Position numbers and translations under genes: made by a program. Of a stretch of 64,000 bases of DNA, positions 26,814-27,085 are shown in pieces. The stretch spans positions 18,790-82,789 of the forward strand of contig CAZVLF010000004.1 in assembly GCA_964627795.1 (NCBI GenBank), in the 5' to 3' direction. Numbering within the stretch: the first letter of the stretch is position 1; every line of letters starts with the position of its first letter. The notes beneath the pieces are model-generated. The model saw nothing but the letters and a program-made list of their open reading frames with translations. It made no database searches and was not told the origin of the DNA. Source of the stretch: an uncultured Rickettsiales bacterium. GTDB lineage: Bacteria > Pseudomonadota > Alphaproteobacteria > Rickettsiales > CANDYO01.

Positions 26814-27085
26814 TGTTGATAAATCTAAGAAAAAATACGGTATAACAATATGTATAATATTGTGGATATTTTACTAACAATTCAATCCAAATACTACTAC
26901 AAAAAAAAATAACATGTAGAATTTATCATTTTTAAAAATTTTAATTTGTGGATTTTTTCGTAAAAGTAACATTTTTACTAGCAATTTTAAAAGAAAAAAC
27001 TTATCAATTAATGTATAATTTTTTGTGGATATAATTTTATCCACATTATACATAATACATCAATTATCAAAAACCTAATAATATA
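26814..27085. other. putative chromosomal replication origin (oriC) with DnaA boxes
   Basis: TTATCCACA at 27037-45 (perfect). TGTGGATAT at 27024-32 and 26861-69, TGTGGATTT at 26947-55. Very AT-rich. Gene orientation diverges here, and the flanks are hemE and DUF299-coaE-dnaQ. Confidence 0.7.

What the first reader, a model, noticed from the sequence alone, without database searches (positions are those of the whole stretch)
26814..27085. Predicted chromosomal origin of replication in the DUF299(PDRP)-hemE spacer
This is a 272-bp gene-free, extremely AT-rich spacer between divergent genes. Seen directly: a perfect DnaA box TTATCCACA (27037-27045) faces TGTGGATAT (27024-27032), forming a palindromic box pair. 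Further boxes are TGTGGATAT (26861-26869) and TGTGGATTT (26947-26955). A module TGTATAAT-(N2-5)-TTGTGGATAT occurs twice (from 26851 and from 27012), so extended -10-like elements are overlapped by DnaA boxes. Gene orientation flips exactly here: minus-strand genes run 23988-26813 and plus-strand genes 27086-35738. parB-parA-rsmG-mnmG lie 6-10 kb away. The flanking set hemE | DUF299-coaE-dnaQ is the cluster reported next to the origins of Caulobacter crescentus and Rickettsia prowazekii. I found no TTAA-N7-TTAA CtrA site in the spacer, which would be a difference from Caulobacter.
Basis: partly seen in the sequence, partly recalled or inferred. Interest (0 to 1): 0.6.

Follow-up and report, generated by a model that had tools for sequence, protein, structure and literature searches.

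The report
Chromosomal replication origin beside hemE
The 272-bp gap between the hemE and DUF299/PDRP genes is very probably this Rickettsiales-like bacterium's chromosomal replication origin, an ordinary new example of the origin type already known from Caulobacter and Rickettsia.

Summary
Every DnaA box is at the stated coordinates. The core ATCCACA occurs 9 times in 64 kb, 4 of them in this spacer, and no other intergenic region has one. None of 20,000 shuffles of the spacer reaches that count.

The origin interpretation is supported by three independent lines:
- Third-codon-position GC skew, controlled for coding strand, switches from negative to positive, and its cumulative minimum falls at the spacer.
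- The boundary genes are the hemE | COG1806(DUF299) pair that flanks the Caulobacter and Rickettsia origins.
- Eight uncultured relatives (hemE 56–65% identical) have a collinear 269–315-bp spacer. It is more conserved than four-fold synonymous sites, and in the five relatives with flanking genes on both sides it shows the same skew switch.

Corrections:
- The TGTATAAT+box module occurs three times, not twice. It is more likely a strong-plus-weak tandem DnaA-box pair than an extended −10 element.
- AT-richness and the flip in gene orientation do not single out this spacer.
- coaE-dnaQ does not flank the R. prowazekii origin.

No CtrA, IHF or GANTC sites are present. A clade-specific TACTAC-N11-ACATGT element is unexplained.

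Verdict: a new member of a known kind, of low-to-moderate interest. Whole-replicon skew, read depth and DnaA binding remain untested.

The parts
26814..27085 (.). Predicted oriC: the whole PDRP | hemE intergenic spacer (272 bp, 18.4% GC)
26016..26813 (-). Left boundary gene: pyruvate phosphate dikinase regulatory protein (COG1806 / DUF299 / PF03618)
   Evidence: NF003742, E 3e-91. The same family flanks the R. prowazekii origin.
27086..28123 (+). Right boundary gene: hemE (uroporphyrinogen decarboxylase), followed by hemH and hemJ
   Evidence: TIGR01464, E 9e-110.
26814..26822 (-). DnaA box TTATCAACA (1 mismatch), abutting the PDRP start codon. A box occupies this PDRP-proximal position in all relatives and in R. 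prowazekii.
26849..26869 (-). Tandem box pair on the minus strand: ATATCCACA (26861-26869) - ATA - TTATACATA (26849-26857). The plus strand reads TGTATAAT-AT-TGTGGATAT.
26892..26909 (+). (TAC)3 followed by A9. This trinucleotide array is a candidate DnaA-trio-like single-strand binding or unwinding element. It overlaps the least stable 50-mer of the spacer (26897-26946).
   Evidence: The role is inferred.
26895..26917 (+). Clade-specific bipartite element TACTAC-N11-ACATGT. It is the only exact copy in the window. Exact copies also lie in the origin spacers of 5 relatives and nowhere else in the 170 fetched loci.
26915..26923 (-). Degenerate box position TGTAGAATT. The invariant A-TGT..AT core aligns with TGTGGATAT in L167 and TGTTAATAA in L001 and L168.
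   Evidence: Weak, inferred.
26947..26955 (-). DnaA box AAATCCACA (plus strand TGTGGATTT). It aligns with a tandem box pair in most relatives.
   Evidence: (D2).
26985..27000 (.). T/A-tract TTTTAAAAGAAAAAAC. It aligns with the conserved TAGATTTTTAAT..AAAAAAA tract of relatives and is an alternative candidate for the unwinding element.
   Evidence: The role is inferred.
27010..27032 (-). Tandem box pair on the minus strand: ATATCCACA (27024-27032) - AAAAA - TTATACATT (27010-27018). The plus strand reads TGTATAAT-TTTT-TGTGGATAT.
27037..27054 (+). Tandem box pair: the perfect TTATCCACA (27037-27045) directly followed by the weak TTATACATA (27046-27054). This is the best-conserved block of the spacer (TTATCCACATTATACA).
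27011..27053 (.). Imperfect palindrome built from the two facing box pairs. Its core is the 22-bp TGTGGATATAA|TTTTATCCACA. As a single DNA strand it folds at -9.7 kcal/mol, z = -3.8.
   Evidence: (I23).

Best explanation
The spacer is the chromosomal replication origin (oriC) of a low-GC, Rickettsiales-like alphaproteobacterium. It is the same positional type as Caulobacter Cori and the Rickettsia origin, lying between hemE and COG1806/DUF299.

**Proposed mechanism**
1. DnaA occupies three strong boxes (27037-45 perfect; 27024-32 and 26861-69 with one mismatch at base 1) and two intermediate ones (26947-55, 26814-22).
2. Each strong box is followed 0-5 nt downstream, on the same strand, by a weak TTATACAT(A/T) box. 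DnaA oligomers can therefore extend from strong sites to weak ones.
3. The filament opens the AT-rich centre of the spacer. The best candidates are 26870-26946, which contains (TAC)3A9 and TACTAC-N11-ACATGT, or the 26985-27000 tract.
4. The helicase is loaded and forks leave in both directions.

**Shown:** the box cluster and its uniqueness in the window, the skew switch, the synteny, and the conservation.

**Inferred:** DnaA occupancy, the role of the weak boxes, and the site of unwinding.

No CtrA, IHF or CcrM (GANTC) sites are present. The Caulobacter-style regulatory layer is therefore probably absent or replaced.
For: **Box cluster**
- 4 of the window's 9 ATCCACA cores lie in 272 bp, and no other intergenic region has one.
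- 0 of 20,000 shuffles match this count.

**GC3 skew on the plus strand, controlled for coding strand**
- Minus-strand genes have a median of -0.19 on the left and +0.14 on the right (Mann-Whitney p 2.5e-4; pooled Fisher p 9e-10).
- Plus-strand genes have 0.01 on the left and 0.15 on the right (p 0.014).
- The best breakpoint is at 26.5-27.5 kb, and the cumulative G3-C3 minimum falls right after the PDRP gene.
- The polarity is that of an origin.

**Boundary genes**
- They match the published hemE/COG1806 origins (PMC1914354).
- The R. prowazekii locus has the same PDRP | hemE-hemH-hemJ layout. Its 384-bp spacer is 17% GC, with boxes mostly in the same orientation and the same skew pattern.

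**Eight relatives**
- The seven with flanking sequence keep bamD-dnaQ-coaE-PDRP | hemE-hemH, while the outer flanks differ.
- Their spacers are collinear.
- Mean pairwise identity is 0.59 against 0.37 for shuffled controls, with 41 invariant columns against at most 7.
- Spacer identity to the window (0.54-0.63) exceeds identity at four-fold sites in the flanking genes (0.34-0.50).
- Pooled skew in five of them switches at the same place: plus-strand genes -0.12 to +0.20 (p 1e-11) and minus-strand genes -0.31 to -0.03 (p 8e-15).
- The box core is enriched in the spacer in 5 of the 7 clade relatives tested (p<=1e-3), and in the R. prowazekii control (p 5e-3).
Against: - Only 64 kb of the replicon is visible, so the global skew extremum is unknown. 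A local rearrangement could mimic a V-shaped minimum.
- No dnaA gene lies in the window. This is usual for this origin type.
- There is no strict IHF site (WATCAN5WTR) and no CtrA site.
- AT content and duplex stability do not single the spacer out.
- There is no canonical 3'-GAT-5' DnaA-trio array within 16 nt of a strong box (hand check against the rules read).
- Two relatives, L165 and L169, and also L081, have only degenerate boxes at several positions.
- There are no experimental data for this organism.
Confidence: 0.88

Rival explanations
1. The spacer is only a DnaA-regulated divergent promoter region for hemE and PDRP, with DnaA acting as a transcription factor. Replication starts elsewhere on the chromosome.
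For: - Perfect TATAAT hexamers sit next to the boxes. Three of the window's seven TGTATAAT copies are here.
- Predicted start sites would fall inside the boxes.
- The spacer must hold the promoters of both genes.
- No IHF or CtrA sites and no clear DnaA-trio array were found.
Against: - It does not explain the strand-independent GC3-skew switch at exactly this junction in the window, in five relatives with different outer flanks, and in the R. prowazekii control.
- TGTATAAT aligns with DnaA-box positions in relatives.
- The promoter scan is not enriched and finds no -35 partner.
- The same gene pair flanks an experimentally mapped origin in Caulobacter (PMC1914354).
- Promoter and origin roles are not mutually exclusive.
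Confidence: 0.05
2. The origin lies in this neighbourhood, but initiation happens at another nearby intergenic region, for example tmk-bamD (23701-23987) or mnmG-uvrB (20932-21024). The box cluster is an auxiliary DnaA-titrating or reactivating site of the datA/DARS type.
For: - Gene-level skew resolution is only a few kb.
- Ioannidis et al. note that skew shifts can spread over about 20 kb.
- Several other spacers are as AT-rich or as unstable.
Against: - Those spacers contain no box with at most 1 mismatch and no ATCCACA core.
- The cumulative G3-C3 minimum is at the PDRP/hemE junction.
- Only this spacer was shown to be conserved with a collinear architecture.
- datA/DARS-type sites are known, to my recollection, only from gammaproteobacteria.
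Confidence: 0.04
3. The box cluster is a relic of an ancestral origin that is no longer used, or the skew pattern reflects a recent rearrangement rather than current fork directions.
For: - N. sennetsu and the Anaplasmataceae show that the hemE-linked origin region can be rearranged, or can lack boxes.
- Only part of the replicon is visible.
Against: - The spacer is under purifying selection beyond synonymous-site identity across a clade.
- The skew switch is seen independently in five relatives.
- A perfect box and several near-perfect boxes are retained.
Confidence: 0.03

Closest known systems
Rickettsia (R. prowazekii, typhi, conorii, felis) predicted origin between hemE and COG1806/RP001 (Brassinga et al. 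2001/2002, as cited in Ioannidis et al. 2007, PMC1914354; DoriC ORI10030005 per PMC8287927, supplementary file 3)
   Same: - Same boundary genes and orientation: PDRP | hemE-hemH-hemJ.
- Similar size and composition: 383-396 bp and about 82% AT, against 272 bp and 82% AT here.
- A box next to the PDRP start, further boxes mostly in the TGTGGATAA orientation, and one facing box TTATCCAC(T/A).
- The same strand-independent GC3-skew switch.
   Different: - hemE is only 49% identical.
- The spacer sequences do not align.
- R. prowazekii has 6 relaxed CtrA sites (2.75 expected) and an IHF match. The window has none of either.
- R. prowazekii lacks TACTAC-N11-ACATGT.
- Its left flank is thioredoxin and an ABC transporter, not coaE-dnaQ-bamD.
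Caulobacter crescentus Cori (experimentally defined origin between hemE and CC0001/DUF299)
   Same: - Same boundary gene pair and a spacer of a few hundred bp containing DnaA boxes (PMC1914354).
- Promoters of the flanking genes lie inside the origin.
- From memory: coaE and dnaQ lie a few genes from CC0001, and a strong hemE promoter inside Cori contributes to initiation.
   Different: - Cori has five CtrA sites (TTAA-N7-TTAA), one IHF site and CcrM GANTC sites. Here there are none.
- From memory, Cori relies on weak, non-canonical DnaA sites. Here one box is perfect and two differ only at base 1.
Basal unwinding system (BUS): tandem DnaA boxes plus DnaA-trios (Pelliciari et al. 2021, PMC8287927)
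   Same: - Three tandem pairs in which the upstream box is closer to consensus. This is the most frequent BUS arrangement.
- A trinucleotide array, (TAC)3A9, sits in fixed register (17 nt) with a box-like ACA|TGT..AT site.
   Different: - There is no run of at least three NAN triplets within 16 nt of any strong box, except a trivial one.
- The candidate trios read 3'-CAT-5', not 3'-GAT-5'. They sit next to a weak box, not a strong one.
- The significance cannot be established in 82% AT DNA.
Wolbachia, Ehrlichia and Anaplasma predicted origins (hemE / COG1253)
   Same: They are hemE-linked, AT-rich and 385-620 bp long, with 2-4 DnaA boxes. CtrA sites are few or absent in several species, for example none in E. 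ruminantium.
   Different: The partner gene there is COG1253 (a CBS-domain protein). Here the presumed ancestral COG1806 partner is kept.

Membership tests
Alphaproteobacterial hemE-linked chromosomal origin (criteria a-g of Ioannidis et al. 2007, PMC1914354) | (a) Boundary genes homologous to those of related origins (hemE and COG1806/DUF299) | tested here: met
   - hemE matches TIGR01464, and PDRP matches NF003742.
- the pair is conserved in about 70 of 80 genome loci.
- the pair is the same in R. prowazekii.
Alphaproteobacterial hemE-linked chromosomal origin (criteria a-g of Ioannidis et al. 2007, PMC1914354) | (b) Intergenic region of 200-1000 bp | tested here: met
   The spacer is 272 bp. 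Both start codons are the most upstream ones possible, and both proteins align from the start of their family profiles.
Alphaproteobacterial hemE-linked chromosomal origin (criteria a-g of Ioannidis et al. 2007, PMC1914354) | (c1) DnaA binding sites present | tested here: met
   One perfect box, three with 1 mismatch and four with 2 mismatches. Under the paper's strict TTATNCACA rule only one site counts.
Alphaproteobacterial hemE-linked chromosomal origin (criteria a-g of Ioannidis et al. 2007, PMC1914354) | (c2) IHF binding site (WATCAN5WTR) | tested here: not met
   none on either strand. Only 2 of the 8 relatives have a match.
Alphaproteobacterial hemE-linked chromosomal origin (criteria a-g of Ioannidis et al. 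2007, PMC1914354) | (d) Binding sites denser than in other intergenic regions | tested here: met
   4 boxes (at most 1 mismatch) and 4 cores here. The other 27 spacers of at least 60 bp have 0-2 boxes and no core.
Alphaproteobacterial hemE-linked chromosomal origin (criteria a-g of Ioannidis et al. 2007, PMC1914354) | (e) AT content above the genome average | tested here: met
   The spacer is 18.4% GC, against 26-35% in 2-kb windows. It is not higher than other spacers, which are 13-29% GC, so this criterion carries little weight here.
Alphaproteobacterial hemE-linked chromosomal origin (criteria a-g of Ioannidis et al. 2007, PMC1914354) | (f) Higher conservation among relatives than the neutral background | tested here: met
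   spacer identity is 0.54-0.63 against 0.34-0.50 at four-fold sites. Mean pairwise identity is 0.59 against 0.37 for shuffled controls.
Alphaproteobacterial hemE-linked chromosomal origin (criteria a-g of Ioannidis et al. 2007, PMC1914354) | (g) Shift in GC skew | tested here: met
   within the window; in relatives. The whole-replicon extremum cannot be tested from 64 kb.
Alphaproteobacterial hemE-linked chromosomal origin (criteria a-g of Ioannidis et al. 2007, PMC1914354) | Functional proof: DnaA binding, unwinding, autonomous replication, or a marker-frequency peak | not testable with these tools
   No reads, no protein and no genetics are available.
CtrA-controlled origin of the Caulobacter Cori type | Several CtrA sites (TTAA-N7-TTAA) overlapping DnaA or IHF sites | tested here: not met
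   - no exact site.
- no site under the relaxed rule, with 1.7 expected by chance.
- Clade total: 7 sites against 13.4 expected.
CtrA-controlled origin of the Caulobacter Cori type | CcrM methylation sites (GANTC) in the origin | tested here: not met
   0 GANTC sites in the spacer, with 1.2 expected from the window density.
Basal unwinding system (BUS; PMC8287927) | DnaA box, or a tandem pair whose upstream box is closer to consensus | tested here: met
   three pairs with gaps of 0, 3 and 5 nt. The second boxes are TTATACATA or TTATACATT.
Basal unwinding system (BUS; PMC8287927) | At least 3 DnaA-trios (NAN, consensus 3'-GAT-5') within 16 nt of the box | tested here: inconclusive
   I applied the rules by hand to the sequences.
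- No array lies next to the perfect box.
- (TAC)3A9 is an in-frame NAN array, but it abuts only a degenerate box (26915-23).
- Chance cannot be excluded in 82% AT DNA.

The most novel reading that the evidence does not exclude
An uncultured Rickettsiales-like clade has kept the ancestral hemE/COG1806 origin position but lost the CtrA/IHF/CcrM control layer. In its place the origin carries a clade-specific element held in fixed register, TACTAC-N11-ACATGT, found once per locus and only inside the origin. This element could be a divergent DnaA-trio array (3'-CAT-5' repeats) that marks the unwinding site next to a weak box. Alternatively it could be the binding site of an unknown regulator that replaces CtrA.
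Probability: 0.2. Interest if true: 0.45.

Novelty: new member of a known kind. Interest (0 to 1): 0.27.

Why it matters
Fixing the origin gives the zero point for replichore-aware analyses of this genome and its uncultured relatives: skew, gene-strand bias, and growth-rate estimates from metagenomic read depth.

It adds nine collinear origin sequences, from the window and eight relatives, that form a deep Rickettsiales-like group. These show which elements survive once synonymous sites are saturated: the boxes, the facing box pair with TTATACA, and TACTAC-N11-ACATGT.

The complete lack of CtrA, IHF and GANTC motifs extends the earlier observation that several obligate intracellular alphaproteobacteria may have simplified or altered control of initiation. 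The conserved spacer would also be the natural starting piece for a shuttle vector for such organisms.

The basic finding, an origin beside hemE in an alphaproteobacterium, is what a specialist would expect.

Tried and rejected
- **Source contig.** The look-up of encoding contigs found neither the window's hemE nor its 100% match P0001, although P0001 is recorded on a 161,757-bp NCBI/Logan contig. The listing of cluster members gave no name or accession. The rest of the replicon could therefore not be examined.
- **Primary literature.** Brassinga et al. 2001 and 2002 are not held. I cite them only through PMC1914354.
- **AT-richness or helical instability as a discriminator.** Rejected. The spacer's softest 30-50-mers rank only about 600th-1100th of roughly 64,000 positions. 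At the 272-bp scale it is lowest by only 0.2 kcal/mol.
- **Promoter scan.** 4 hits against 5.3 expected, and none uses the TGTATAAT elements.
- **Other content in the spacer.** Rfam has no match at E<=1 in 26500-27400. The small ORFs there (up to 59 aa) are low-complexity and not conserved.
- **Regulatory motifs.** IHF, CtrA (strict and relaxed), GANTC and GATC are all absent.
- **Canonical DnaA-trios next to the strong boxes.** Not found by hand check.
- **Pelagibacterales spacers as comparators.** The gene pair is the same, but the boxes are weak and there is no replication skew. They are uninformative.
- **L003 and L004 (higher-GC relatives).** Boxes are present, but there is no clear skew in ±6 kb.
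- **dnaA gene.** Not found among the ORFs of at least 90 aa that were scanned.
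Full report
**1. What is in the sequence**

The region 26814-27085 is a 272-bp, 18.4% GC spacer. On its left lies a minus-strand gene for the pyruvate phosphate dikinase regulatory protein (PDRP; COG1806, DUF299; NF003742, E 3e-91). 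On its right lies a plus-strand hemE (TIGR01464, E 9e-110).

The wider gene map is as follows:
- Left, minus strand: bamD-dnaQ-coaE-PDRP.
- Right, plus strand: hemE-hemH-hemJ-rho-mdh-sucC-sucD.
- Further left: parB-parA-rsmG-mnmG at 16881-20931, then uvrB and tmk.

A RisK1-like effector and two Adr-like adhesin genes point to a Rickettsiales-like organism. The genome is about 30% GC. None of the ORFs of at least 90 aa that I scanned is dnaA.

**2. The boxes are real and not chance**

A fifth box, TTATCAACA, abuts the PDRP start codon at 26814-26822.
- The perfect TTATCCACA is the only one in 64 kb.
- 4 of the 29 sites with at most 1 mismatch lie in the spacer, against 0.12 expected.
- 4 of the 9 ATCCACA cores lie in the spacer. 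None of the other 27 intergenic regions of at least 60 bp has a core.
- None of 20,000 dinucleotide-preserving shuffles of the spacer reaches 4 sites or 4 cores.

That is not the case.

**3. Anatomy, with corrections**

The motif TGTATAAT occurs 7 times in the window and 3 times in the spacer, each time beside a box. The composite TGTATAA-N0-6-GTGGAT occurs 3 times in the window, all of them here. One copy is on the minus strand at 27039-27052. The module is therefore present three times, not twice.

Read on the box strand, each module is a strong box followed 0-5 nt downstream by TTATACAT(A/T). That is a TTATNCACA-type box with one or two further mismatches.

In relatives, the same alignment columns hold either GTATAAC/TGTATAAT or a good TGTGGATA(A/T) box. 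I therefore read these elements mainly as weak DnaA boxes in tandem pairs.
- They do contain a perfect TATAAT hexamer.
- The TG abuts the hexamer, so this is not the canonical TGnTATAAT.
- The scan found no -35 partner.
- A promoter role is not excluded.

The two pairs nearest hemE face each other and form an imperfect palindrome at 27011-27053.
- Its core is the 22-bp TGTGGATATAA|TTTTATCCACA.
- As a single strand it folds at -9.7 kcal/mol, z = -3.8.

The spacer has no TTAA-N7-TTAA site, strict or relaxed. It has no IHF consensus, no GANTC and no GATC. Rfam finds nothing, and the small ORFs are low-complexity.

AT-richness and duplex instability are typical of spacers in this genome and do not discriminate. 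The divergent junction is one of nine in the window.

**4. Replication-strand signal**

Raw GC skew follows the coding strand, so I used third codon positions and compared genes of the same orientation on the two sides.

| Genes | Left of spacer | Right of spacer | Test |
|---|---|---|---|
| Minus-strand | median -0.19 | median +0.14 | Mann-Whitney p 2.5e-4; pooled Fisher p 9e-10 |
| Plus-strand | median 0.01 | median 0.15 | Mann-Whitney p 0.014; pooled Fisher p 1e-3 |

- A change-point scan puts the best breakpoint at 26.5-27.5 kb.
- Cumulative G3-C3 falls steadily to its minimum right after the PDRP gene and then rises to the end of the window.
- The sign (the plus strand becomes G-rich to the right) is that of an origin, not a terminus.
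- The limit of this test is that only 64 kb is visible.

**5. Related sequences**

The PDRP | hemE pair is widespread in Alphaproteobacteria. The window's own genome is not among the species representatives. The best genome hit there is 61% identical in hemE.

A protein search found an exact match on a 161,757-bp NCBI/Logan contig, which I could not retrieve. It also found a group of relatives at 56-65% identity.

I compared eight of these relatives (L001, L081, L163, L165, L167-L170). The seven with flanking sequence all keep bamD-dnaQ-coaE-PDRP | hemE-hemH, while the outer flanks differ.

Their spacers are 269-315 bp and 18-23% GC. They are collinear with the window's spacer. The shared order of elements is:
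1. a box next to the PDRP start;
2. GTATAAC;
3. a box or TGTATAAT at about position 48;
4. TTACTAACATTT;
5. GTACTACAAA;
6. CACATGT;
7. a box, or a tandem pair, at about positions 125-150;
8. a T/A tract;
9. the best-conserved block, GTATAAC-TxTGTGGATAA-AATTT-wATCCACA-TTATACAG.

The conservation measures are these:
- Mean pairwise identity is 0.59, against 0.37 ± 0.01 for shuffled controls.
- There are 41 invariant columns, against at most 7 in the controls.
- Identity between the window and each relative is higher in the spacer (0.54-0.63) than at four-fold sites of the flanking genes (0.34-0.50).

The spacer is therefore under purifying selection.

The ATCCACA core is enriched in the spacer in 5 of the 7 clade relatives tested (p<=1e-3).

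The strand-controlled GC3 skew switches at the same junction in five relatives pooled. It also does so in L001 and L006.

| Genes (five relatives pooled) | Left | Right | Fisher p |
|---|---|---|---|
| Plus-strand | -0.12 | +0.20 | 1e-11 |
| Minus-strand | -0.31 | -0.03 | 8e-15 |

**6. Comparison with the known origin type**

Ioannidis et al. (PMC1914354) summarise three points:
- Caulobacter Cori was mapped experimentally between hemE and CC0001 (COG1806/DUF299).
- The R. prowazekii origin lies between RP885 (hemE) and RP001.
- The four Rickettsia origins are 383-396 bp long and about 82% AT.

They propose seven criteria for such origins. Here (a) boundary genes, (b) size, (c) DnaA sites, (d) site density, (e) AT content, (f) conservation and (g) skew shift are all met. 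The exception is the IHF part of (c).

I fetched the R. prowazekii locus as a positive control.
- Its layout is PDRP | hemE-hemH-hemJ with a 384-bp spacer.
- It has a box next to the PDRP start, further boxes mostly in the TGTGGATAA orientation, and one facing TTATCCACT.
- Its GC3-skew pattern is the same.
- Its left flank is thioredoxin and an ABC transporter, not coaE-dnaQ.
- It has 6 relaxed CtrA sites (2.75 expected) and one IHF match. The window has none of either, and the whole clade has 7 CtrA sites against 13.4 expected.

A paucity of CtrA sites has already been reported for several Rickettsiales.

**7. Where the origin opens**

I could not determine the unwinding site. I applied the published rules for the basal unwinding system (the strand convention was taken).
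- The tandem strong-plus-weak box arrangement fits the commonest pattern.
- No array of at least three NAN triplets lies within 16 nt of a strong box.

One element stands out. TACTAC-N11-ACATGT occurs exactly once in the window, at 26895-26917. Among the 170 fetched loci, exact copies occur only inside the origin spacers of five clade members.
- The ACATGT contains the invariant TGT of a box-like site (TGTnnATww). This site is good in L167 and weak elsewhere.
- The (TAC)2-3(A)n array is an in-frame NAN run that reads 3'-CAT-5'.

This could be a divergent DnaA-trio unwinding element, or the site of an unknown protein. In 82% AT DNA I cannot give it statistical support beyond its conservation and uniqueness.

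**8. Verdict**

It is a new member of a well-known kind, the hemE/COG1806-linked alphaproteobacterial origin, in a poorly sampled Rickettsiales-like clade.

Its distinguishing points are modest:
- one perfect box and two boxes with a single mismatch, with each of these three strong boxes paired to a weak box;
- a conserved facing box pair;
- no CtrA, IHF or GANTC motifs;
- a clade-specific bipartite element of unknown role.

The decisive tests are the whole-replicon skew, read-depth profiles, and DnaA binding and unwinding assays. None of these could be run here.

Noticed in passing
window 26895-26917; also L001:5782-5804, L163:5813-5835, L167:9794-9816, L168:9780-9802, L170:9788-9810: The bipartite motif TACTAC-N11-ACATGT has one exact copy in the 64-kb window. 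Among the 170 fetched loci it occurs only inside the PDRP|hemE spacers of clade members. ACATGT alone is in 8 of the 9 clade spacers (TTATGT in L165), and the ATGT within it is invariant in all nine. The function is unknown.
   Followed up: partly
window 19065-19080: A near-palindrome, TGTTCCATGTGGAACA, has 3 mismatches to the parS consensus, two of them symmetric. It lies at the rsmG/mnmG junction next to parAB, 7.8 kb from the spacer, and is a possible variant parS. Only 2 of 100 shuffles give at least 2 such hits in the window.
   Followed up: no
window 58469-60736 (+); L167:2546-4813: A 755-aa hybrid histidine kinase (HisKA-HATPase-REC) lies 31 kb from the spacer. A protein of identical length and domain order lies 5 kb from the origin spacer in relative L167. 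It might be the CckA-type cell-cycle kinase, which would bear on whether a CtrA pathway exists. No specific family match was found.
   Followed up: partly
window 55599-56864 (+): A 421-aa ORF matches part (profile positions 208-364 of 1299) of the gene-transfer-agent baseplate protein 'megatron' (NF048004, E 5e-57, below the curated cut-off). It may be a GTA or phage-tail remnant. No other tail genes were seen beside it.
   Followed up: no
window 9695-11404 (+) and 48642-50140 (-): There is a RisK1-like T4SS effector PI3-kinase homologue (E 6e-41) and two tandem Adr-like adhesin genes (E 1e-16 and 5e-15). These Rickettsia-type host-interaction genes sit in a genome whose hemE is only 49% identical to that of Rickettsia.
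   Followed up: no
window 23774-23849 and 42754-42830: tRNA-Ala(TGC) and tRNA-Ile(GAT) normally sit together in the rRNA spacer. Here they lie 19 kb apart with no rRNA gene in the window. This is consistent with a dispersed rRNA arrangement.
   Followed up: no
window 42089-43058: This 970-bp stretch has no ORF of at least 90 aa. It holds tRNA-Ile, the least stable 100-bp segment of the window (42832-42931) and six 2-mismatch DnaA-box look-alikes. It has no ATCCACA core and no site with at most 1 mismatch.
   Followed up: no
L161:4795-8498 (R. prowazekii): In R. prowazekii the genes left of PDRP are thioredoxin and an ABC transporter, not coaE-dnaQ. The coaE-dnaQ-bamD block next to the origin is therefore a feature of the window's clade (and, from memory, partly of Caulobacter), not of Rickettsia.
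   Followed up: yes
window 20932-25431 and 60836-61315: Replication and repair genes cluster around the spacer: uvrB, tmk and dnaQ within 6 kb on the left, holC (chi subunit) 34 kb to the right, and a DNA topology modulation protein at 36640-37155.
   Followed up: no
P0001 (identical to window 27086-28123): The protein index lists an exact copy of this hemE on a 161,757-bp NCBI/Logan contig. The contig look-up returns 'not on record', and the cluster listing gives no accession. The source assembly could not be identified.
   Followed up: yes
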